From Muribaculaceae bacterium (lineage in GTDB: Bacteria > Bacteroidota > Bacteroidia > Bacteroidales > G3-4614): a stretch of 64,000 nucleotides of DNA. This document shows, piece by piece, positions 2,933 through 54,395 of the stretch. Within the stretch, counting starts at the first letter, position 1. The number at the start of each line of letters is the position of its first letter. A program made the position numbers and the translations under genes. The notes under the pieces are model-generated. The model saw nothing but the letters and a program-made list of their open reading frames with translations, did no database searches and was not told the DNA's origin. The stretch is taken from assembly GCA_017546805.1 (NCBI GenBank), contig JAFYRT010000032.1, forward strand, positions 13,574 to 77,573. Direction: 5' to 3'.

Positions 2933-3727
2933 TTAAGGCATACAAACTACACGAAATCCTATTTTATTGTTAGTACAGGATGATATTTCATAGGCTCTAT
3001 AAGTTGCTCTACATTTTGGAGCATTATCGTTCCAACATCCACCTCTTAGTACTTTATAGTTTCCTACTTCACTTTTATATTCAGATTTATACTTCTTGAT
3101 ATATAAGATATAATTATCTACACACCATTCATATACGTTTCCACTCATATCATATAGACCTAATTTATTAGGTTTTTTCAAACCAACAGGATGAACCTCT
3201 CCTTCGCTATTTAAACTATACCATGCAACTTTATCTATATTAGATCCTCCACTATAACTTTTCGCAATTGTTTTTCCTTCAAGTGCGGCATATTCCCATT
3301 GTTCTTCTGTTGGTAATTGGTATTTTTTTCCTGTTAATTGGCTCAATTTTTCACAAAACAACACTGCATCATTCCAGCTAATATTGGTTATTGGGAAATC
3401 GCCACCCTCTTCTATTTTAATACCTCTATTCATTATTGCCTCCCATTGTTTTTGAGTAATCTCAAATGCAGCTATATAATATGGTTCCATATTTATTTCA
3501 GTAACAGGTCGCTCATCGCTATATCCTCCTTCCTCCGAAGTATTTCCCATTATAAACGGACCTCCTTTTACATAAACCATCTTCAAATTCAGATTTTTTA
3601 TATCTTCAACATAATTTTTCATTCCTTTGGGTAAGGAATCAACATCCTCATACCTATTCTTTTTCGCATGGACACTTAATATGACAATTGAAGACAACAT
3701 AAGTACAAAAAACAGAACATTTCTCAT
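2933..3727 (-). CDS. secreted formylglycine-generating-enzyme (SUMF1/FGE) family protein
   Basis: 264 aa with an N-terminal signal peptide (MRNVLFFVLMLSSIVILSVHA). FGE-sulfatase domain hallmarks are present: YDMSGNVYEWC and RGGCWNDNAPKCRATYR. Confidence 0.8.
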   Translation of the reverse strand: MRNVLFFVLMLSSIVILSVHAKKNRYEDVDSLPKGMKNYVEDIKNLNLKMVYVKGGPFIMGNTSEEGGYSDERPVTEINMEPYYIAAFEITQKQWEAIMNRGIKIEEGGDFPITNISWNDAVLFCEKLSQLTGKKYQLPTEEQWEYAALEGKTIAKSYSGGSNIDKVAWYSLNSEGEVHPVGLKKPNKLGLYDMSGNVYEWCVDNYILYIKKYKSEYKSEVGNYKVLRGGCWNDNAPKCRATYRAYEISSCTNNKIGFRVVCMP

Positions 3728-3789
3728 CGTTATTAAATTTTTATATTTCCCCTACTCTATTACAGATTTTCGGAATTCTCTGACAAAAC

Positions 3790-4508: not shown

Positions 4509-6257
4509 TTATACTCCAAGAGAAGATGCAACAGCTTTAATTTTACCCTCTGCCGCAGCATTTACAGCTTCATACTCTGCAGGTGAAGACAATATACCAC
4601 GAACCTCAACATAGAACTTGATTTTTGGCTCTGTTCCTGAAGGACGTATTGATACTTTTGTTCCATCCTCAGTAAAGTATTGAATTACATTTGCTGTTGT
4701 TGGCATATCCAATACAAATGTTTCTCCTGCCAATATATCTGTTCCTTTTAATGTTGCAAAGTCTTTTATCAAAACAACTTTTGATCCTGCAATCTCTGAA
4801 ATTGGATTAGCACGGAAGTTTTTCATCATTGCCTCAATCTCCTCTGCTCCACTCTTACCTTTACGGACAACTGAGATTCCTTTCTCTTTTGAGAATCCAT
4901 ATTTCACATAGATGTCTTGTAACATCTCGTATACTGTTTTTCCATTCTCTTTAGCCCATGCTGCAGCCTCTGCCATCATTGGAATTGCAGATACGGCATC
5001 TTTGTCACGAACGAAGTCCTCTACCAAGAATCCGTAGCTCTCTTCTCCTCCTCCAATGTAACGCTCTTTTCCTTCAAGCTCACGAATTACTGCTGCAATC
5101 CATTTGAATCCTGTGTAGCAATCGTAACATTTAATATTGTTTTTGTCTGCGATGGTTTTAATCAACTCGCTTGTTACAATTGTTTTTACAATAAACTCGT
5201 TTCCTTTTAATGTTCCCATCTCACGAGAACGAGTCATTATATAGTTCAATAGTAGGATTGCTATTTGGTTTCCGTTTATAAGTACAAACTCTCCTTTATC
5301 GTTTTTAACAGCTACTCCAAGGCGGTCTGCATCTGGGTCTGATGCCATGATAATATCTGCATCAACCTCTTTACCTTTTTCTATCGCCATGTTCAATGCA
5401 GCAGGCTCCTCTGGGTTTGGAGATGCTACTGTTGGGAAGTTTCCGTCTGGAATGTCTTGCTCTGGCACGTTAATGATATTTGTAAATCCAAATGCACGTA
5501 GTGCTGCAGGAACCAATTTAACTCCTGTTCCGTGTATTGGAGTATAAACAATTTTCATATCGCTGTTGCGTGCAACCAAGTCGGGAGATAGAGAAAGTTC
5601 TTTTATTTTATTTACATAGATATCGTCAATCTCTTGTCCGATTACCTCAATTAATTCGGGATTTCCTTGGAATTTGATATCCTCAATTCCTGCAACTTTG
5701 TTTACCTCAGCAATTGTGTTTTTGTCGTGTGGAGATATCATTTGTGCTCCATCGTTCCAATATGCTTTGTATCCGTTATACTCTTTTGGATTGTGAGATG
5801 CGGTCAAGATAATACCGCTTTGGCATCCCAATTCACGAATTGCAAATGACATCTCAGGTGTTGGGCGCAATGACTCAAATAAATATACTTTGATTCCGTT
5901 TGCAGAGAAGATATCAGCAGAAATTTCAGCAAATTTACGGCTGTTGTTACGGCTATCATGTCCGATTACCACTTTAATTTGTGGCAATTCTGCAAACTCT
6001 TTTTTTAGGTAATTTGAAAGACCTTGTGTTGCAGCACCTACGGTATAGATATTCATACGGTTGGTTCCTACACCCATGATTCCACGCAAACCTCCTGTTC
6101 CAAACTCCAAATCACGATAGAAAGCATCTATCAACTCTGTTTTGTCCTCTTGCTCTAAAAGTCTTTTCACTTCGGCACGAGTCTCAGCGTCGTAACCTTC
6201 GCCCATCCATACTTGAGCTCTCTCTGTTACTTGTTTTAATAATTCGTCGTTTTGCAT
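4509..6257 (-). CDS. phosphoglucomutase/phosphomannomutase family phospho-sugar mutase
   Basis: 582 aa with the alpha-D-phosphohexomutase active-site serine loop TASHNPKEYNGYK and the Mg-binding loop SDPDADR. Confidence 0.9.
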   Translation of the reverse strand: MQNDELLKQVTERAQVWMGEGYDAETRAEVKRLLEQEDKTELIDAFYRDLEFGTGGLRGIMGVGTNRMNIYTVGAATQGLSNYLKKEFAELPQIKVVIGHDSRNNSRKFAEISADIFSANGIKVYLFESLRPTPEMSFAIRELGCQSGIILTASHNPKEYNGYKAYWNDGAQMISPHDKNTIAEVNKVAGIEDIKFQGNPELIEVIGQEIDDIYVNKIKELSLSPDLVARNSDMKIVYTPIHGTGVKLVPAALRAFGFTNIINVPEQDIPDGNFPTVASPNPEEPAALNMAIEKGKEVDADIIMASDPDADRLGVAVKNDKGEFVLINGNQIAILLLNYIMTRSREMGTLKGNEFIVKTIVTSELIKTIADKNNIKCYDCYTGFKWIAAVIRELEGKERYIGGGEESYGFLVEDFVRDKDAVSAIPMMAEAAAWAKENGKTVYEMLQDIYVKYGFSKEKGISVVRKGKSGAEEIEAMMKNFRANPISEIAGSKVVLIKDFATLKGTDILAGETFVLDMPTTANVIQYFTEDGTKVSIRPSGTEPKIKFYVEVRGILSSPAEYEAVNAAAEGKIKAVASSLGV

Positions 6258-49737: not shown

Positions 49738-49774
49738 AGTTTTTTATATGATTTTCTAGTCTGCAAAGATACTG

Positions 49775-49819
49775 AAAAAAAAGTGAGCAACAAAGTTTTT
49801 ATCACTTTGGTTACTCACT
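49775..49819 (-). terminator. intrinsic terminator ending the aromatic amino-acid operon
   Basis: Minus strand: agtgagtaaccaaagt ... actttgttgctcact followed by T8. A TATCTTTG -7 box for prfA follows it. Confidence 0.8.
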
Positions 49820-49836: not shown

Positions 49837-50610
49837 CTATTTTAGCTTTTCGCGTATTGCATCTAAATATTTTATCATTCCATCGGCATCTTTTTTAGAT
49901 ACCATCTCTTGCAAAACCGAGAGTTGCTTTTGTATATCCTCCAGCTGTTGTGGCGTGTGAGGATTAAACAATATTTCGGTTAACAGATAATCATCTTCTG
50001 ACAACAATCCCCTCGCGATGTTCATGTGTTTTTTGAACGTTGTTCCGGGTGCATCCTGATGTTTCATTACACTTGCAAAGACCAATGTTGATGCAAATGG
50101 TATTGATAGAGAGTATGCTATTGTTTCGTCATGCTCTTTGAATGAGTACTCAAATATGTTGAGATGCAAACGACTGTAAAGGTCTTTGAAGAAGACTTTT
50201 CCCAAATGGTCACTCTCTGATATTATTATTGTGTTTTGAGTACTTAAATCGCTCAAATTGGCAAACGTGGGACCAAACATAGGGTGAGTAGAAACAAAGG
50301 GGCGTTTTACCTCTTGATAAAACTCTGGCAATCCTGTTTTCACAGACGCTATATCTGATATTATACACCTTTCGGGCAAATATGGAAGAACCTCTTTAAA
50401 TGCCTCAATTGTATACTTTATTGTTACTGCGTTTATCAACAAATCAGGAGCAAACTCTTTTACCTCATCTAAAGATGAAAATCTCAATGTATTAAAGGTA
50501 AATCGCAGACGATTGGGATCTTTGTCGAACATTGCAACTTCGTGGTCGAAGCTCAACACATCGGCAAAGAATGCTCCCATTTTACCCGCTCCCATTATTA
50601 GTATTTTCAT
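49837..50610 (-). CDS. tyrA: prephenate dehydrogenase
   Basis: 257 aa with the Rossmann N-terminus MKILIMGAGKMG. Its size and position downstream of DAHP synthase/chorismate mutase match Bacteroidales aro operons. Confidence 0.8.
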   Translation of the reverse strand: MKILIMGAGKMGAFFADVLSFDHEVAMFDKDPNRLRFTFNTLRFSSLDEVKEFAPDLLINAVTIKYTIEAFKEVLPYLPERCIISDIASVKTGLPEFYQEVKRPFVSTHPMFGPTFANLSDLSTQNTIIISESDHLGKVFFKDLYSRLHLNIFEYSFKEHDETIAYSLSIPFASTLVFASVMKHQDAPGTTFKKHMNIARGLLSEDDYLLTEILFNPHTPQQLEDIQKQLSVLQEMVSKKDADGMIKYLDAIREKLK

Positions 50611-50692
50611 AATTTTTTTATTTGCTTATATTGTAGGCGTAGCACTACGCCCAACTAACAAATTGCGGACGTAGCAGGCTACGTCCCTACTT

Positions 50693-51766
50693 TTAAGATT
50701 CCGCTTTTAATATCTCTACTTGTTGACGTACACTCTCCTCGTGAATTGCTTGCATAACTGTAAGCATAAAATCGCCCTTCATTTCGGCAGCCTCGGCTTG
50801 TTCTACTCGTTTTTTCAAAATCTCATCATAACGTGCTGCTTGCAAAACAGTCATTTTATGCTCTTTTTTGAATTTTCCAATCTCACGAGATACTCTCATT
50901 CGTTTTGCAAGAAGATCTATCAACTCGTTATCCAAAACGTCTATTTGTTTACGCAAATCTCCTAAGTCTTCAGTTGTTGTGTGAACATCGCGAATTACCA
51001 AATCATCTAATAACAAATCCAATGCTCCGGGAGTTATTTGTTGATTTTTATCACTCCATGCGTAATCGGGCGAGCAGTGAGTCTCTATGATAAGGCCATC
51101 GAATCCCATATCCATTGCATGTTGCGAAAGAGGTGCTACGAAATCGCGTTTTCCTCCAATATGACTTGGATCGCAGAATATTGGCAAGTTGGGGAAACGA
51201 CGACGCAACTCTATGGGTATGTGCCATTGTGGTGAGTTACGGTATACTTTTTCGTCGTAGTTACTGAATCCGCGATGTATTGCTCCAATTTTACGCAATC
51301 CTGCATTGTATATACGTTGAATACCTCCAATCCACAACTCTATATCGGGGTTTACGGGATTTTTAACAAGTACAGGGATATCTGCTCCTTTTAAGGCATC
51401 TGCAATCTCCTGCATTGCAAATGGATTGGCTGTTGTTCTTGCTCCTATCCACAATAAATCAACTCCGTGTTTCAATGCTTCAAGTACATGGTATTGGTTT
51501 GCAACCTCGGTAGCCACATACATTCCTGTTTCGGCTTTCACTTTTTTCAACCACAATAAGCCTTCGCTTCCTACTCCCTCAAAACCTCCCGGTTTGGTAC
51601 GTGGTTTCCAAATTCCTGCTCGGAATATTTTTACTCCACGTGATGCTAAATCACGAGCCGTTTCCATTACTTGGTCTTCTGTCTCTGCACTACAAGGGCC
51701 TGCTATTACCAAAGGACGTTTATCGTCTAATCCGGGTAAAGTGATTTTTTCAAATTGCATTTCCAT
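50693..51766 (-). CDS. bifunctional 3-deoxy-7-phosphoheptulonate synthase / chorismate mutase (type II)
   Basis: 357 aa. The N-terminal ~260 aa is a KDO8P-synthase-like class I-beta DAHP synthase. The C-terminal ~90 aa is a helical CM-II domain (LRKQIDVLDNELIDLLAKRMRVSREIGKFK). Confidence 0.85.
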   Translation of the reverse strand: MEMQFEKITLPGLDDKRPLVIAGPCSAETEDQVMETARDLASRGVKIFRAGIWKPRTKPGGFEGVGSEGLLWLKKVKAETGMYVATEVANQYHVLEALKHGVDLLWIGARTTANPFAMQEIADALKGADIPVLVKNPVNPDIELWIGGIQRIYNAGLRKIGAIHRGFSNYDEKVYRNSPQWHIPIELRRRFPNLPIFCDPSHIGGKRDFVAPLSQHAMDMGFDGLIIETHCSPDYAWSDKNQQITPGALDLLLDDLVIRDVHTTTEDLGDLRKQIDVLDNELIDLLAKRMRVSREIGKFKKEHKMTVLQAARYDEILKKRVEQAEAAEMKGDFMLTVMQAIHEESVRQQVEILKAES

Positions 51767-51799: not shown

Positions 51800-52963
51800 T
51801 TATAATATTGCTTTTATTCTCTCTTTTGCCTCTTTTAATTTCTCTTCTGTTGCACACAATGATATGCGTATAAAATTTTCTCCTTCGCTACCGAATACCA
51901 TTCCAGGGGTTATAAATACTCTTGCTTCGTATAGGATTTTATCTGCCAACTCTGCTCCATTTTTATACTTTTCTGGAACTTTTGCCCAAAGGAACATTCC
52001 ACGTTGTGCCGAATCGAACTTACATCCTAACATCGTTGCTATTTCTTCTGCCAACTCCCTACGAGGACGATAGATGTTGTTTATCTCCTCATACCACTCC
52101 TCTCCTAACATCAATGCCTCTGATGCAGCCAACTGCATTGAGCGGAATGTTCCTGAATCTATGTTGCTTTTTACTTTTAATATCCACGATACAAATTGTG
52201 CATTTGAAGCCAACATGCCTACACGCCAACCCGGCATGTTATGAGATTTACTCATTGAATTTAGCTCTATGCAAATATCTTTTGCTCCTTCAACTGATAA
52301 GATACTCAACGGATTGTTGTTTAGGATAAAACTATATGGATTGTCGTTTACAATTATTATTCCGTGTTTCTTACCAAATGCTACCAATTTTTCAAACAAC
52401 TCTTTTGTTGCCACTCTTCCTGTTGGCATATTTGGGTAGTTTACCCACATTAATTTTACGTTTGAAAGATCGTTTTTCTCTATCTCTTCAAAATCGGGCA
52501 ACCAATCGTTCTCCTCTTTTAGATTATAGGTTATTATGTTAGCCTCTGCTAATCTACTAACTGAACTGTATGTTGGATATCCCGGATTTGGAACCAACAC
52601 CCCATCTCCTGGATTTAAGAATGCTAACGATATGTGTAATATTCCCTCTTTTGAACCTATCAAAGGTTGTATTTCTGTTTTAGCATCCAACTCAACACTA
52701 AACCATTTTGAGTACCAAGTAGAGAACGACTCTCTCAATTTTGCTATTCCTACATATGGTTGGTATCCGTGAGCATCGCTTTGCTCTGCATCGTTACATA
52801 AAGCATCTATAACATCTTTGTGTGGCGGACGATCAGGACTTCCAATTCCCAAACTGATTACATTCAACCCTCGTGCATTCATTTCCGCTACCTCTTTCAG
52901 TTTTTTTGAAAAGTAGTACTCGCTTACTGTGGCTACTCTGTTTGCCGGTGTTATATTTTTCAT
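51800..52963 (-). CDS. class I/II PLP-dependent aminotransferase (probable aromatic/prephenate aminotransferase)
   Basis: PLP-lysine region SMSKSHNMPGWRVG. It is the first gene of the aro operon. I use the ATG at 52963 (MKNITPANRV), 14 nt after the attenuator T-run. Confidence 0.85.
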   Translation of the reverse strand: MKNITPANRVATVSEYYFSKKLKEVAEMNARGLNVISLGIGSPDRPPHKDVIDALCNDAEQSDAHGYQPYVGIAKLRESFSTWYSKWFSVELDAKTEIQPLIGSKEGILHISLAFLNPGDGVLVPNPGYPTYSSVSRLAEANIITYNLKEENDWLPDFEEIEKNDLSNVKLMWVNYPNMPTGRVATKELFEKLVAFGKKHGIIIVNDNPYSFILNNNPLSILSVEGAKDICIELNSMSKSHNMPGWRVGMLASNAQFVSWILKVKSNIDSGTFRSMQLAASEALMLGEEWYEEINNIYRPRRELAEEIATMLGCKFDSAQRGMFLWAKVPEKYKNGAELADKILYEARVFITPGMVFGSEGENFIRISLCATEEKLKEAKERIKAIL

Positions 52964-52976
52964 AGTTGTGATAAAT

Positions 52977-53003
52977 AAAAAAATCCCGCTCATGAGAGCG
53001 GGA
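52977..53003 (-). terminator. attenuator terminator of the aro operon leader
   Basis: Minus strand: TCCCGCTC tcat GAGCGGGA (perfect 8-bp stem) followed by T7. Confidence 0.8.
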
Positions 53004-53059
53004 CTTTGTATTTTTCTTTAATATTATTTTTTTAATCTCACATACACAAACTCCCGCTC
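52977..53059 (-). promoter_or_regulatory. transcription attenuator with mutually exclusive antiterminator and terminator
   Basis: Segment 1 GAGCGGGAGTTTG (53047-53059) starts immediately after the leader stop codon. It can pair with segment 2 CAAAGTCCCGCTC (52996-53008) as 8 bp + 4 bp around one mismatch. Segment 2 is also the 5' arm of the terminator. Confidence 0.7.
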
Positions 53060-53125
53060 TTACTTAGCAAAAAAGTAAAAGTAATAAAAAAAGAAGTATG
53101 CAAATGTAGATTGTAAATTTTTCAT
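53060..53125 (-). CDS. Phe/Tyr-rich leader peptide MKNLQSTFAYFFFYYFYFFAK
   Basis: Hand-translated 21-codon ORF (ATG..TAA) with 7 Phe and 4 Tyr among its last 14 residues. It lies between a consensus promoter and the attenuator hairpins. Confidence 0.7.
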   Translation of the reverse strand: MKNLQSTFAYFFFYYFYFFAK

Positions 53126-53159
53126 CGCTTAAAATACGTTTATTAGGTTTCAGACGTTG

Positions 53160-53190
53160 CAAAGGTATAGATATTTTTTTTTCTTCCAAA
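53160..53190 (-). promoter_or_regulatory. Bacteroidota-type promoter of the aro leader (TTTG-N19-TACCTTTG)
   Basis: On the minus strand, -33 TTTG is at 53187-53190 and -7 TACCTTTG at 53160-53167, with a 19-nt spacer. The leader ATG is about 35 nt downstream. Confidence 0.6.
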
Positions 53191-53282
53191 TTTTTTTCCA
53201 AGAATTTTAAAAAAAATTTTTACTCGGAAATATCTATAATGTTTTTCGCCTTGATAATCAACAATATTAAAGTTTATATTTT

Positions 53283-54395
53283 TTAATAGACAAACGGCGG
53301 TGGCGACATCATGGTAGAGGGCATATATCCCGGACCCCACTCATTCCAAGGAGTGAGAACTATTCTTAGGTTGATATCTCCATAGGTATGCAACTCGAAT
53401 ATCGGATTTTCTCGACAATTCAAATAGACCAACGATGGACATAGAGATACATCGAGTGTAGATATGGAGTTATCACTGCAATTGAGATGTTGCAATAGTG
53501 TTCTTGCGTGCAAATCAAGATTATCAATACTGTTATAAGAACAATCAATAAACGAAAGGTATCCACAGCCTTCAATATTTAATTCTCTTATACCGTTATA
53601 TGAACAATCGAGATAGGAGAGATTTGGCAGGTTATTTACAGAAAAATATTCCATATTGTTATTACTGCAATAAAGAGTTGTTAGACGAGTCAAATCGGAT
53701 GGTGTAAATTGCGTTACATTGTTGTTGTCAATATTCAAATTTGATAACAATGGAATGTTTGTCAAATCTATTTCTGATAGATTATTATATCCACAATAGA
53801 GATTCATTAATGAATCGCAACCAGAAACTGTTATGGTCGTTAGTTTACACCCTTGTATATTGAGAGTTTTCAAACTCTTTGAAACCGATGCATCAAACGA
53901 TGCAAAGTTATTGTCTCCACAATTCAGAAATTGCAAGGATGGAAGTTGTGATAAATCAAGCGAGGTTAGACGATTTTTAAAACATAACAATCGTTGTAAA
54001 GAGGGACAATTTGTTATATTCAACTCCTCGATATGATTATTAGAAACGTTCAACGTTTTCAGTTTTTCACATCCTGACAGATTTACCGCAGAGAGCTTAT
54101 TCCTTGATAAATCTACACTTTGCAGAGCCTTCATCTCCGATAAATCCAAACTTCCCGAAAGAGAGTAACCTCGCCACATAATGGATTTTACATGTCCATT
54201 ACTCCACTCCACCCCATTCCACGAAGTTGGGGAATTCAAATCTTTTATACCGATCAGTTGCGCATTGCTTTTGTTTGAGTGCGAAGGGTGCTGTAAAAAT
54301 GTTTTTAACTGTTTAACTTCGGTTTTAGAGAGCTGTTGCGCATTTACCATTATTGTTGTAATCACAACAAGTGTTAGAAGCAAATATCTTTTCAT
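53283..54395 (-). CDS. secreted leucine-rich repeat protein
   Basis: 370 aa with a signal peptide (VNAQ) and about 12 tandem ~22-residue LRRs (L..L.C..N.L..LDLS..P.L). There is no recognisable T9SS CTD, and the C-terminal tail is unusual (GPGYMPSTMMSPPPFVY). Confidence 0.8.
   Translation of the reverse strand: MKRYLLLTLVVITTIMVNAQQLSKTEVKQLKTFLQHPSHSNKSNAQLIGIKDLNSPTSWNGVEWSNGHVKSIMWRGYSLSGSLDLSEMKALQSVDLSRNKLSAVNLSGCEKLKTLNVSNNHIEELNITNCPSLQRLLCFKNRLTSLDLSQLPSLQFLNCGDNNFASFDASVSKSLKTLNIQGCKLTTITVSGCDSLMNLYCGYNNLSEIDLTNIPLLSNLNIDNNNVTQFTPSDLTRLTTLYCSNNNMEYFSVNNLPNLSYLDCSYNGIRELNIEGCGYLSFIDCSYNSIDNLDLHARTLLQHLNCSDNSISTLDVSLCPSLVYLNCRENPIFELHTYGDINLRIVLTPWNEWGPGYMPSTMMSPPPFVY

What the first reader, a model, noticed from the sequence alone, without database searches (positions are those of the whole stretch)
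52977..53190. Phe/Tyr-rich leader peptide with antiterminator/terminator switch upstream of the aromatic amino-acid operon
Seen directly, in order on the minus strand:

- A consensus TTTG-N19-TACCTTTG promoter.
- A 21-codon ORF, MKNLQSTFAYFFFYYFYFFAK, with 7 Phe and 4 Tyr codons clustered in the last 14 residues.
- GAGCGGGAGTTTG immediately after its TAA stop. This segment can pair with CAAAGTCCCGCTC about 40 nt downstream (12 bp).
- That second segment is also the 5' arm of a perfect 8-bp hairpin, TCCCGCTC-tcat-GAGCGGGA, followed by T7. The hairpin sits 14 nt before the aminotransferase ATG.

Established knowledge: this is the logic of ribosome-mediated attenuation, as in the pheA, trp and his leaders. 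A ribosome that reaches the stop codon masks segment 1, so the terminator forms. A ribosome stalled on Phe/Tyr codons leaves segment 1 free, so the antiterminator forms.

Inference: the aminotransferase / DAHP synthase-CM / prephenate dehydrogenase operon is controlled by charged tRNA-Phe and tRNA-Tyr. Mixed F/Y control fits an operon containing tyrA. No prephenate dehydratase gene is present at the 5' end here. Trp leaders are described for Bacteroidota, but I cannot say whether this Phe/Tyr leader is already modelled.
Basis: partly seen in the sequence, partly recalled or inferred. Interest (0 to 1): 0.62.

Follow-up and report, generated by a model that had tools for sequence, protein, structure and literature searches.

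The report
Phe/Tyr leader-peptide attenuator of Bacteroidota
A 21-codon upstream reading frame packed with phenylalanine and tyrosine codons, followed by two mutually exclusive RNA hairpins, most likely turns this gut bacterium's aromatic amino-acid genes on only when Phe or Tyr runs short; the mechanism is textbook, but this Bacteroidota version is widespread and not catalogued.

Summary
- a Bacteroidetes-type promoter;
- the 21-codon ORF MKNLQSTFAYFFFYYFYFFAK;
- an antiterminator arm directly after the stop codon;
- an intrinsic terminator with a T7 tract, 13 nt before the aminotransferase ATG.

Both helices are longer than reported: the antiterminator has 15 bp and the terminator 12 bp.

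The element is not a chance arrangement. The same layout precedes the orthologous operon in about 150 Bacteroidales loci. Both helices covary. The distance from the last F/Y codon to the antiterminator stays at 12-18 nt, while the stop codon position varies by about 50 nt. A covariance model built without the window scores it at 90.7 bits. A pattern scan found the family in Flavobacteriales, Chitinophagales and Marinilabiliales too.

The best explanation is classical ribosome-mediated transcription attenuation that senses Phe and Tyr supply. This rests on sequence and comparative evidence only; there is no experiment.

The element is not in Rfam 15, Pfam or NCBIfam. One 2010 paper notes in a single sentence that Bacteroides may use a pheL gene. 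The window copy is unusual because the prephenate dehydratase gene that normally follows the leader is missing.

The parts
53160..53190 (-). Bacteroidetes-type promoter: -33 TTTG (53190-53187), 19-nt spacer, -7 TACCTTTG (53167-53160). The inferred transcription start is a few nt downstream, giving a 5' UTR of about 30 nt before the leader ATG.
   Evidence: Read directly. The pattern occurs 4 times in the window against 0.56 expected. A TAnnTTTG motif sits 25-35 nt upstream of the leader ATG in most orthologous loci. The start site itself is inferred, not mapped.
53060..53125 (-). Leader ORF of 21 codons plus TAA: MKNLQSTFAYFFFYYFYFFAK.
   Evidence: A homologous F/Y-rich mini-ORF is present in 73 of 80 loci and in further loci.
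53069..53104 (-). Regulatory codon run, codons 8-19: F A Y F F F Y Y F Y F F (7 Phe, 4 Tyr).
   Evidence: It is unique in six frames of the window, with 0 hits in 30 shuffles. F and Y interchange at these positions across the family.
53092..53112 (-). Putative segment 1 (anti-antiterminator). This is leader coding sequence that pairs with segment 2 and its 3' flank in the minimum-energy fold. A second short arm, CUUUUACUU at 53081-53073, pairs with AAGUAAGAG across the stop codon.
   Evidence: Minimum-energy folds. Comparative support is weak: 71% of cells paired against 49-60% when the partner is slid, and the structure was derived from the window itself. Treat as inconclusive.
53044..53059 (-). 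Segment 2, the 5' arm of the antiterminator: GAGCGGGAGUUUGUGU. It begins directly after the TAA stop.
   Evidence: Duplex with segment 3 of -24.8 kcal/mol. The hairpin is -21.8 kcal/mol. It covaries with segment 3.
52996..53011 (-). Segment 3, shared by both structures: AUACAAAGUCCCGCUC. It is the 3' arm of the antiterminator, and 53007-52996 is the 5' arm of the terminator.
52977..52991 (-). Segment 4, the 3' arm of the terminator: GAGCGGGAUUUU (52991-52980). The T7 tract is 52983-52977 and the loop UCAU is 52995-52992.
   Evidence: The terminator scan gives a 12-bp stem with 6 G-C pairs and a 4-nt loop. The hairpin is -19.7 kcal/mol. RNAalifold gives it as the consensus, with 7 of 11 pairs covarying. 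93.7% of cells are paired.
51800..52963 (-). First structural gene: a class I/II PLP aminotransferase of 387 aa. Its role as an aromatic or prephenate aminotransferase is inferred from the operon context.
   Evidence: NCBIfam aminotransferase models at E about 1e-126, below the equivalog cut-offs. Orthologues sit in the same operon in all related loci.
50693..51766 (-). DAHP synthase fused to chorismate mutase (357 aa).
   Evidence: NCBIfam: DAHP synthase models over residues 15-256 and chorismate mutase models over residues 263-355.
49837..50610 (-). Prephenate dehydrogenase (257 aa), probably the last gene of the regulated operon. The next gene, prfA, has its own promoter-like site at 49794-49764.
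   Evidence: NCBIfam prephenate dehydrogenase models. Promoter pattern.

Best explanation
This is a classical ribosome-mediated transcription attenuator that reads Phe and Tyr supply through the speed at which a leader peptide is translated.

Transcription starts at the TTTG/TACCTTTG promoter, and a ribosome begins translating the 21-codon leader. Three outcomes follow.

1. Charged tRNA-Phe and tRNA-Tyr are plentiful. The ribosome runs to the stop codon at 53062-53060 and covers segment 2 (53059-53044). Segment 3 then pairs with segment 4, the terminator forms, and RNA polymerase stops at the T7 tract, 13 nt before the aminotransferase gene.
2. Either amino acid is short. The ribosome stalls inside the 12-codon F/Y run and leaves segment 2 free. 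Segment 2 pairs with segment 3 as soon as segment 3 is made (15 bp). The terminator cannot form, and polymerase reads on into the aminotransferase, DAHP synthase/chorismate mutase and prephenate dehydrogenase genes.
3. No ribosome is on the leader. The coding region probably pairs with segment 2, so the terminator forms by default.

Shown here: the sequence elements, their conservation, covariation of both helices, the conserved spacing, and co-transcription of the leader with the operon in relatives. Inferred: the start site, the stalling, the switch itself and its response to Phe and Tyr.
For: **Anatomy.** All parts are present, and the F/Y run is unique in the window.

**Conservation.**
- 73 of 80 orthologous Bacteroidales loci carry an F/Y-rich mini-ORF plus both helices.
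- 77 of 87 further loci are hit by covariance model R1.
- R1 was built without the window. It scores the window at 90.7 bits, E = 2.8e-14, and that is the only significant hit in the 64 kb.

**Terminator.** 93.7% of cells are paired, with 106 cells changed on both sides against 34 in shuffles.

**Antiterminator.**
- On a plain MAFFT alignment 79.3% of cells are paired, against 39-48% when the partner is slid.
- 92 cells are changed on both sides against 43 in shuffles, with 0 of 500 shuffles reaching this.
- The core switches together on both arms: GCGGGA/UCCCGC, GCAGGA/UCCUGC, ACAGGA/UCCUGU, ACGGGA/UCCCGU.
- A second set of loci gives 80% paired against 40-55% slid.
- The per-sequence segment 2:3 duplex has a median of -17.4 kcal/mol, median z about -5. 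Only 28 of 7400 shuffles were as good.

**Geometry.** The first nt of the last F/Y codon lies 12-18 nt (mode 14) before the first paired nt of segment 2 in all 74 leaders. The stop codon ranges from 9 nt before to 42 nt after that point. So the regulatory codons are positioned relative to the helix, not the end of the peptide. The distance matches the 3' reach of a ribosome footprint, which is established knowledge.

**RNA rather than peptide is conserved.** The nucleotides of segment 2 are kept whether they are translated (Bacteroides ...KVEREFVCIK) or lie after the stop (window: TAA then GAG CGG GAG TTT GTG).

**Folding with a masked ribosome.** I masked a 30-nt footprint and refolded. With no ribosome, a ribosome at the stop codon, or a stall at the last Phe codon, the terminator forms. 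With stalls at codons 13 or 16, the antiterminator is the minimum-energy fold.

**Logic.** In 69 of 72 relatives the leader precedes the operon prephenate dehydratase - aminotransferase - DAHP synthase/chorismate mutase - prephenate dehydrogenase. That operon makes both Phe and Tyr.

**Co-transcription.** RNA-seq contigs of B. xylanisolvens run from the leader through the operon. A bovine metatranscriptome contig from a relative about 93% identical spans 53107-52791.
Against: - There is no experimental evidence of any kind for this leader or its relatives. No short terminated transcript was seen, because only assembled contigs without local depth were available.
- The segment 1:2 pairing needed for default termination has only weak comparative support.
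- In the equilibrium model only stalls in the middle to late part of the run give the antiterminator. Stalls at codon 10 or codon 19 do not. The model ignores kinetics.
- Attenuation of this type needs tight coupling of translation to transcription, and as far as I know that has not been demonstrated in Bacteroidota.
- Bacteroidota mRNAs mostly lack Shine-Dalgarno sites, so efficient translation of the leader is assumed rather than shown.
- In five relatives with the same arrangement as the window (no prephenate dehydratase gene), the three read in detail have a hairpin without a clean U tract. An intrinsic terminator is therefore not universal in the family.
Confidence: 0.87

Rival explanations
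1. The ribosome-sensed leader acts through Rho-dependent termination or polarity, or on translation of the first gene, and not through the intrinsic terminator. Stalling versus completion of the leader would change access for Rho, or the structure in front of the aminotransferase start.
For: Five relatives share the window's arrangement, with the leader directly before the aminotransferase. The three of them read in detail (L057, L078, L079) have a hairpin without a clean U tract. The terminator lies only 13 nt from the aminotransferase ATG in the window.
Against: The window and nearly all other family members have a canonical G+C-rich stem followed by 6-9 U. The competing helix overlaps exactly the 5' arm of that stem and covaries with it. 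The start codon itself is not inside the hairpin.
Confidence: 0.05
2. The switch is set by something other than tRNA charging. Candidates are a nascent arrest peptide that senses free Phe or Tyr (as TnaC senses Trp), an RNA-binding protein, or direct ligand binding by the RNA.
For: An aromatic-rich nascent chain could in principle interact with the ribosome exit tunnel. No experiment excludes a trans-acting factor.
Against: The peptide has no conserved arrest motif. Run length, the F/Y order and the C-terminal tail all vary, and the stop codon moves by about 50 nt. Stalling caused by excess amino acid would induce a biosynthetic operon, which is the wrong sign. Outside the two helices and the codon run, the 32-nt spacer is A-rich and not conserved, so there is no aptamer-like fold. 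No riboswitch, T-box or protein-binding leader family matches.
Confidence: 0.04
3. The short transcript or its peptide is a product in its own right: a small hydrophobic peptide, or a small RNA released at the terminator. Regulation of the downstream operon would then be incidental.
For: Attenuator-derived RNAs and leader peptides with trans functions exist in Sinorhizobium (rnTrpL and peTrpL; abstracts listed). The terminated leader RNA would be about 175 nt and stably capped by a hairpin.
Against: The element is always on the coding strand directly upstream of the same aromatic amino-acid operon, in about 150 loci here and 70 more across the phylum. Only the F/Y composition of the peptide is conserved. 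No protein family model matches it. A trans role would add to the cis role, not replace it.
Confidence: 0.03
4. It is a chance arrangement: a T-rich intergenic stretch that happens to read as Phe/Tyr, next to an ordinary terminator of the upstream gene.
For: The region is A+T-rich (29% G+C). In other frames the same run would read as Leu or Phe/Thr. Rfam's Leu_leader also gives a weak match.
Against: The ATG-defined F/Y frame, the helices and the spacing are conserved across an entire phylum. Shuffles never reproduce the run or the fold.
Confidence: 0.01

Closest known systems
pheL-pheA attenuator of Enterobacteria, Vibrio and Shewanella (Rfam RF01859 Phe_leader)
   Same: Both have a short leader ORF with a run of Phe codons, an antiterminator and terminator pair, and an intrinsic terminator before the Phe biosynthesis gene. 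The logic of ribosome stalling is the same. In most relatives of the window the leader also precedes a prephenate dehydratase gene.
   Different: The match is below the family threshold, 36.1 against 55 bits, and comes mainly from the U-rich run and the terminator. The run mixes Phe with Tyr codons (with Trp codons too in other orders). The operon also makes Tyr and carries the first step of the common pathway. The promoter is of the Bacteroidetes type. In the window the dehydratase gene is absent.
Putative pheL of Bacteroides noted by Gurvich et al. [quoted passage not shown]
   Same: It is almost certainly the same element. [quoted passage not shown] It reported that Bacteroides 'potentially use a pheL gene'. 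The Bacteroides loci analysed here (B. nordii, B. xylanisolvens, B. cellulosilyticus, B. finegoldii) belong to the same alignment and model as the window.
   Different: The paper gives one sentence in its main text, and I did not check its supplementary material. It mentions no Tyr codons, covariation or distribution beyond Bacteroides, and reports no experiment. The window copy would have escaped that screen because no pheA follows it.
Bacteroid-trp leader (Rfam RF01692; Weinberg et al. 2010, PMC2864571)
   Same: It is a leader motif of Bacteroidetes upstream of aromatic (Trp) biosynthesis genes, listed as cis-regulatory and not a riboswitch. From my own knowledge it contains a short Trp-codon ORF and a terminator.
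   Different: It is a different family. There was no match in the window even at E up to 10. It has different regulatory codons and a different operon.
Multivalent attenuators of E. coli: the thr leader (Thr and Ile codons) and the ilvGMEDA and ilvBN leaders (Ile, Leu, Val codons)
   Same: One leader carries codons for more than one end product of a branched pathway, so shortage of any one of them relieves termination. This is textbook knowledge and was not tested here.
   Different: The amino acids and the lineage differ, and there is no sequence relation.
F/Y uORF candidates upstream of shikimate-pathway genes in other phyla (Stav et al. 2019, PMC6429828, Fig. 6b; uORFC-13-1 upstream of aroF in Acholeplasma, Brewer et al. 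2021, PMC8632094)
   Same: These are short upstream ORFs with Phe (and Tyr) codons next to a terminator stem, before aromatic pathway genes. They are interpreted as attenuators.
   Different: The lineages are unrelated and the motifs were defined independently. None is from Bacteroidota.

Membership tests
Classical ribosome-mediated (leader-peptide) transcription attenuators, as a functional class | A short ORF in the 5' leader with a cluster of codons for the end product(s) of the operon | tested here: met
   11 of 12 consecutive codons are Phe or Tyr. The operon encodes DAHP synthase/chorismate mutase, prephenate dehydrogenase and an aminotransferase. The feature is conserved in about 150 loci.
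Classical ribosome-mediated (leader-peptide) transcription attenuators, as a functional class | An intrinsic terminator between the leader ORF and the first structural gene | tested here: met
   12-bp stem with 6 G-C pairs and a T7 tract, 13 nt before the ATG. It covaries.
Classical ribosome-mediated (leader-peptide) transcription attenuators, as a functional class | A mutually exclusive antiterminator that uses the 5' arm of the terminator | tested here: met
   15-bp helix between 53059-53044 and 53011-52996. It is -21.8 against -19.7 kcal/mol for the terminator. Covariation is seen in two alignments.
Classical ribosome-mediated (leader-peptide) transcription attenuators, as a functional class | Geometry: a ribosome at or past the end of the run masks the antiterminator arm, and a ribosome stalled in the run leaves it free | tested here: met
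   The spacing from the last F/Y codon to segment 2 is 12-18 nt in 74 of 74 leaders, whatever the stop codon position. Masked-footprint folding gives the expected states. Both are computational tests.
Classical ribosome-mediated (leader-peptide) transcription attenuators, as a functional class | Segment 1:2 pairing (pause hairpin or anti-antiterminator) that gives termination when the leader is not translated | tested here: inconclusive
   It is present in the window's minimum-energy fold. Across the family 71% of cells are paired against 49-60% slid, and the structure was derived from the window itself.
Classical ribosome-mediated (leader-peptide) transcription attenuators, as a functional class | Read-through responds to the supply of the cognate charged tRNAs | not testable with these tools
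   Only assembled RNA contigs were available. They show co-transcription of the leader and the operon, but no local depth and no Phe/Tyr conditions.
Rfam RF01859 Phe_leader (gamma-proteobacterial pheL) | Covariance-model score at or above the gathering threshold of 55 bits | tested here: not met
   36.1 bits, E = 8e-4. No family reaches its threshold at this site in the whole-window scan.
Rfam RF01692 Bacteroid-trp and RF01743 leu/phe leader | A covariance-model match | tested here: not met
   Neither appears among the 26 matches listed at E up to 10 for 52000-54000.
Bacteroidota Phe/Tyr leader family, defined here by model R1 and equal to the putative Bacteroides pheL of PMC3082878 | A match to a covariance model built from other members only | tested here: met
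   90.7 bits, E = 2.8e-14, full-length match at 52974-53086 on the minus strand. It is the only hit in the window below E = 0.05.
Bacteroidota Phe/Tyr leader family, defined here by model R1 and equal to the putative Bacteroides pheL of PMC3082878 | Location directly upstream of a prephenate dehydratase gene that heads the aromatic operon | tested here: not met
   There is no prephenate dehydratase in the window, and the leader abuts the aminotransferase. Of 72 relatives, 69 have the dehydratase. The same dehydratase-less arrangement recurs in L057, L078, L079, L104 and L108 and in Marinifilum L232. The location is therefore typical of the family but not obligatory.

The most novel reading that the evidence does not exclude
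This leader is one copy of a phylum-wide attenuator that may be the main regulator of aromatic amino-acid biosynthesis across Bacteroidota.

- It takes more than one input: Phe or Tyr, plus Trp codons in Chitinophagales and Flavobacteriales.
- It evolves as a module. It occurs as tandem copies with non-cross-pairing stems, and it has been re-attached to the aminotransferase gene several times after loss of the dehydratase gene.
- Its conservation would be indirect evidence that transcription and translation are tightly coupled in Bacteroidota.
Probability: 0.45. Interest if true: 0.45.

Novelty: new member of a known kind. Interest (0 to 1): 0.33.

Why it matters
**Annotation.** About 150 loci here, and many more across Bacteroidota, carry a well-defined cis-regulatory element that current annotation misses. 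It is absent from Rfam 15, Pfam and NCBIfam. A 2013 survey based on Rfam models found only two RNA regulogs in Bacteroidaceae and suggested that amino-acid attenuators arose in gamma-proteobacteria (PMC3766115). The alignments and model made here would be enough for a new family entry.

**Biology.** The element gives a testable account of how gut Bacteroidales set Phe and Tyr synthesis. A conserved leader-peptide attenuator also implies ribosome-polymerase coupling in a phylum whose translation initiation is unusual.

**Practical use.** It is a compact natural Phe/Tyr-responsive switch that could serve as a sensor part in Bacteroides engineering.

None of this changes how attenuation is understood. 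The mechanism is the textbook one.

Tried and rejected
- **Rfam.** A permissive scan of 52000-54000 and a gathering-threshold scan of the whole window found no family at threshold. The weak Phe_leader and Leu_leader matches come from the U-rich run and the terminator.
- **Peptide families.** NCBIfam and Pfam searches with four leader peptides found nothing.
- **RNA evidence for the window organism.** It is an uncultured gut (probably ruminant) bacterium. One bovine metatranscriptome holds a relative about 93% identical, available as contigs only.
- **RNA evidence in a cultured relative.** The B. xylanisolvens runs are also held as contigs only. They show read-through transcripts but cannot show a drop in depth at the terminator.
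- **B. thetaiotaomicron transcriptome paper (PMC7366714).** It makes only a general remark that some long 5' UTRs hold sORFs reminiscent of leader peptides. The supplementary files held did not mention the operon or an F/Y peptide.
- **Earlier attenuator surveys.** Vitreschak et al. 2004 and Lopatovskaya et al. 2010 are not held in the library. From memory they predicted attenuators in Bacteroidetes, and I could not verify which operons.
- **Segment 1:2 helix.** I tested it and left it as inconclusive.
- **RNAalifold on the full alignment.** It returns only the terminator. The antiterminator had to be tested as a named alternative structure.
- **Prephenate dehydratase elsewhere in the window.** None was found. 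Whether the organism has one elsewhere in its genome could not be checked.
Full report
**1. The observation**

On the minus strand the window reads, in order:
- TTTG (53190-53187), 19 nt, TACCTTTG (53167-53160);
- a 34-nt gap;
- ATG AAA AAT TTA CAA TCT ACA TTT GCA TAC TTC TTT TTT TAT TAC TTT TAC TTT TTT GCT AAG TAA (53125-53060), which translates to MKNLQSTFAYFFFYYFYFFAK;
- GAGCGGGAGTTTGTGT (53059-53044);
- a 32-nt A-rich spacer;
- ATACAAAGTCCCGCTC (53011-52996);
- TCAT;
- GAGCGGGATTTT, whose T run continues to 52977;
- 13 nt, then the ATG of an aminotransferase gene at 52963.

Three small corrections apply.
- The antiterminator is 15 bp with one G-G mismatch, not 12 bp.
- The terminator stem is 12 bp, not 8.
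- The mechanical ORF list starts the aminotransferase at an in-frame ATG in the terminator loop (52993). That should not be taken as the real start.

The features are not what chance gives.
- The promoter pattern occurs 4 times in the window against 0.56 expected.
- The F/Y run is the only one of its kind in six frames, and none appeared in 30 dinucleotide shuffles.
- The leader folds with z = -4.07 against its shuffles.

**2. Surroundings**

Downstream on the same strand lie four genes:
- a class I/II aminotransferase (52963-51800);
- a DAHP synthase fused to chorismate mutase (51766-50693);
- a prephenate dehydrogenase (50610-49837);
- prfA, which has its own promoter-like site at 49794-49764.

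Upstream are a leucine-rich-repeat protein, a CvfB-like S1-domain protein and TilS. None is related to the pathway. No prephenate dehydratase is encoded anywhere in the 64 kb. The organism is an uncultured gut bacterium, and its DNA is found in gut and bovine or sheep gut metagenomes. The closest aminotransferase in the species-representative genome set is 75% identical and belongs to an uncultured Bacteroidales bacterium.

**3. Relatives**

I fetched the 80 best loci encoding the aminotransferase, all from Bacteroidales.
- In 73 of them a mini-ORF with at least 7 Phe/Tyr in 10 codons lies upstream and is followed by an antiterminator and a terminator. Examples are MNRFSFTYYFYYFYFSRVKAGVCM in Parabacteroides, MKALYNTYFFFFYYFYFSNKVKREFVCVR in Phocaeicola and MTRFFTYFYFYFYFSR in Paludibacter.
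- Of the other seven, five are cut off at a contig end. Model R1 later hit four of the seven (L014, L041, L048, L068).
- In 69 of 72 loci a prephenate dehydratase gene lies between the leader and the aminotransferase.
- In three loci (L057, L078, L079) the leader abuts the aminotransferase, as in the window.
- Each leader is preceded at 25-35 nt by a TAnnTTTG motif.

**4. The two helices**

I aligned 74 leaders with MAFFT, using no structural information (alignment A1).

Terminator:
- RNAalifold returns it as the consensus, with 7 of 11 pairs showing changes on both sides.
- Counted as a named structure, 93.7% of cells pair, against 38-58% when the partner is slid.
- 106 cells are changed on both sides against 34 in shuffles.

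Antiterminator, named from the window sequence:
- 79.3% of cells pair, against 39-48% when slid. About ten Paludibacter-type sequences are misaligned by MAFFT in segment 2, which lowers the figure.
- 92 cells are changed on both sides against 43 in shuffles, with 0 of 500 shuffles reaching this.
- The covariation is easy to see by eye. Segments 2 and 3 read GCGGGA/UCCCGC in Bacteroides, Phocaeicola and the window, GCAGGA/UCCUGC in Parabacteroides and Paludibacter, ACAGGA/UCCUGU in Dysgonomonas, and ACGGGA/UCCCGU or GUGGGA/UCCCAC in others.
- Taken sequence by sequence, the best duplex between the region after the run and segment 3 has a median of -17.4 kcal/mol and a median z of about -5. Only 28 of 7400 shuffles were as good.
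- A second alignment of 78 further hits was fitted to a model that does not contain this helix. It gives 80.1% paired against 40-55% slid.

A third pairing, of the leader coding region with segment 2, appears in the window's minimum-energy fold. Its comparative support is weak, 71% against 49-60%, and it was derived from the window itself. I leave it open.

**5. Geometry**

Across the 74 leaders the first nucleotide of the last F/Y codon lies 12-18 nt (mode 14) before the first paired nucleotide of segment 2. The stop codon lies anywhere from 9 nt before to 42 nt after that point.
- About 40% of leaders stop just before segment 2, as the window does.
- About 60% are translated through it.

The nucleotides of segment 2 are the same either way. 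Bacteroides reads ...AAA GTA GAG CGG GAG TTT GTA TGT... as K V E R E F V C. The window has TAA in place of the GTA codon and keeps GAG CGG GAG TTT GTG after it. So selection acts on the RNA helix and on the position of the regulatory codons, not on the peptide's tail.

The distance is what the 3' edge of a ribosome footprint would need. A ribosome stalled in the run just clears segment 2, and one that has passed the run covers it.

Folding the window leader with a 30-nt footprint masked gives these states:

| Ribosome position | Minimum-energy result |
|---|---|
| No ribosome | terminator |
| At the stop codon | terminator |
| Stalled at the last Phe codon (19) | terminator |
| Stalled at codon 13 or 16 | antiterminator |
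| Stalled at codon 10 | terminator |

This is an equilibrium picture and ignores the order of synthesis.

**6. One family, phylum-wide**

I built a covariance model from 73 leaders without the window (R1).
- It scores the window at 90.7 bits, E = 2.8e-14. That is the only significant hit in the 64 kb.
- It hits 77 of 87 further loci, always on the coding strand upstream of the operon.

A DNA pattern built from the last F/Y codons and the terminator arms was scanned over one genome per species.
- 81 loci carry an F/Y-rich mini-ORF over the match.
- 70 of those are followed within about 100 nt by a prephenate dehydratase homologue.
- They include Flavobacteriales (Flavobacterium, Cellulophaga, Flagellimonas, Salinimicrobium), Chitinophagales (Niastella, Ginsengibacter, Ferruginibacter, Sediminibacterium, Hanamia) and Marinilabiliales (Marinifilum).
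- R1 scores these at 35-68 bits.

Because the pattern requires the TCCYG/YRGGA stem, this is a lower bound on the spread and a biased sample.

**7. Transcripts**

No run with raw reads was available.
- Assembled RNA-seq contigs of B. xylanisolvens run without a break from upstream of the leader through the dehydratase and aminotransferase genes.
- A bovine gut metatranscriptome holds a 316-nt contig from a relative about 93% identical. It spans 53107-52791, covering the leader codons, the terminator and the start of the aminotransferase.

This shows that read-through transcripts exist and that the leader is part of the operon mRNA. It says nothing about premature termination or its regulation.

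**8. Mechanism**

With charged tRNA-Phe and tRNA-Tyr in good supply, the ribosome clears the run and masks segment 2, so the terminator forms. With either in short supply, the ribosome stalls in the run and segment 2 captures segment 3, so transcription continues.

Mixed F/Y control fits an operon that in most relatives makes both Phe (dehydratase) and Tyr (dehydrogenase) and carries the first committed step of the common pathway. Any one stalled codon is enough, so the expected logic is Phe-short OR Tyr-short, as in the multivalent thr and ilv leaders of E. coli.

Rivals are listed with their weights in the Rival explanations section: Rho or translational control, a nascent arrest peptide or trans-acting factor, an independent peptide or small RNA, and chance. 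Together they get about 0.13.

**9. What is known**

- Rfam 15 has no family for this element. The gamma-proteobacterial Phe_leader reaches 36.1 of 55 bits, and Bacteroid-trp and the Lactococcus leu/phe leader do not match at all.
- Pfam and NCBIfam have no model for the peptide.
- Gurvich et al. [quoted passage not shown] That is a prior sighting of the same element, with no detail in the main text.
- A survey of RNA regulons based on Rfam models found none of the amino-acid attenuators in Bacteroidaceae (PMC3766115).
- The B. thetaiotaomicron transcriptome paper mentions leader-like sORFs only in general terms (PMC7366714).
- F/Y uORFs before shikimate-pathway genes have been described in unrelated phyla (PMC6429828, PMC8632094).
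- Two older comparative papers may name Bacteroidetes attenuators: Vitreschak et al. 2004 and Lopatovskaya et al. 2010. They could not be read.

**10. Verdict**

It is a textbook mechanism in a lineage where it has been barely noted and never curated or tested. The window copy is a rearranged member that has lost the dehydratase gene. I rate it a new member of a known kind with interest 0.33. A specialist would not be surprised by the mechanism, but the family is clean, large, phylum-wide and missing from the databases.

Noticed in passing
L001:2868-2996 and 3009-3137; L003:2859-2988 and about 2997-3140; L004 likewise; L232:5941-6038 and 6079-6189: Some genomes carry two complete leader-attenuator units in tandem before the operon. 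Both units are F/Y-rich. Where read (L001, L003), the two units use different helix cores, for example AACGGGAU/AUCCCGUU and then GGUGGGA/UCCCACC, so they should not cross-pair.
   Followed up: partly
L163, L169, L170, L175, L183, L187, L205, L208, L211, L222, L228, L245, L258 and others: 20 of the 81 leaders found by the pattern scan have one or two Trp codons next to the F/Y run. Examples are MNMQAIMNNWFYFFFYFYF... and MNNLFIWNAWYYFYFY.... The ones with visible record titles are mostly from Chitinophagales and Flavobacteriales. This suggests sensing of all three aromatic amino acids in those orders. None of the 74 aligned Bacteroidales-set leaders (A1) has a Trp codon.
   Followed up: partly
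L057:3808-3966, L078:3793-3950, L079:571-725 (the same contigs as L113, L110, L111); also L104:1336-1459 and L108:1335-1455: A group of Bacteroidaceae genomes assembled from metagenomes, mostly of ruminants, shares the window's arrangement, with the leader directly before the aminotransferase. In the three read in detail the terminator-like hairpin is followed by an interrupted U-poor tail (for example GGGACUUACAUAUAUAU), not a U tract. Termination there may be weak or work differently.
   Followed up: partly
L232 (Marinifilum sp. chromosome), about 6228 onward: In this member of Marinilabiliales the tandem leader is followed directly by an aminotransferase 53% identical to the window's, again with no dehydratase gene between. 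The dehydratase-less arrangement has therefore arisen more than once.
   Followed up: partly
window 52993-52991 (-): An in-frame ATG in the loop of the terminator (ucAUGa) makes a mechanical ORF call extend the aminotransferase by 10 codons into the terminator. Gene callers may mis-start this gene.
   Followed up: yes
window 50667-50686: A perfect 8-bp palindromic hairpin, GGACGTAGC-CTGC-TACGTCC as reported by the scan, lies in the 82-nt gap between the DAHP synthase/chorismate mutase gene and the prephenate dehydrogenase gene. It has no clear U tract on either strand. It may be an intra-operon stability or processing element.
   Followed up: no
window 49764-49794 (-): A second perfect TTTG-N19-TAnnTTTG promoter pattern lies just upstream of prfA. 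prfA and pyrF are therefore probably not part of the attenuated operon.
   Followed up: no
window 3749-3783 (-): The only Rfam match above a gathering threshold in the whole window is a DUF805b RNA (RF02914, 42.2 bits).
   Followed up: no
L231 (labelled Erythrobacter sanguineus, metagenome-assembled) and L225 (labelled Microgenomates group bacterium): Contigs binned to non-Bacteroidota genomes carry leaders of the Bacteroidota type. L231 has a Flavobacterium-like leader followed by a dehydratase gene. These are probably misbinned contigs.
   Followed up: no
window 53104-53069 (-), and the family consensus TTTTACTTTTACTTT: The regulatory run would read Leu-Leu-Leu-Leu (UUA CUU) or Phe-Thr in the other two frames. 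This explains the weak Rfam Leu_leader match. The conserved ATG fixes the F/Y frame in all loci.
   Followed up: partly
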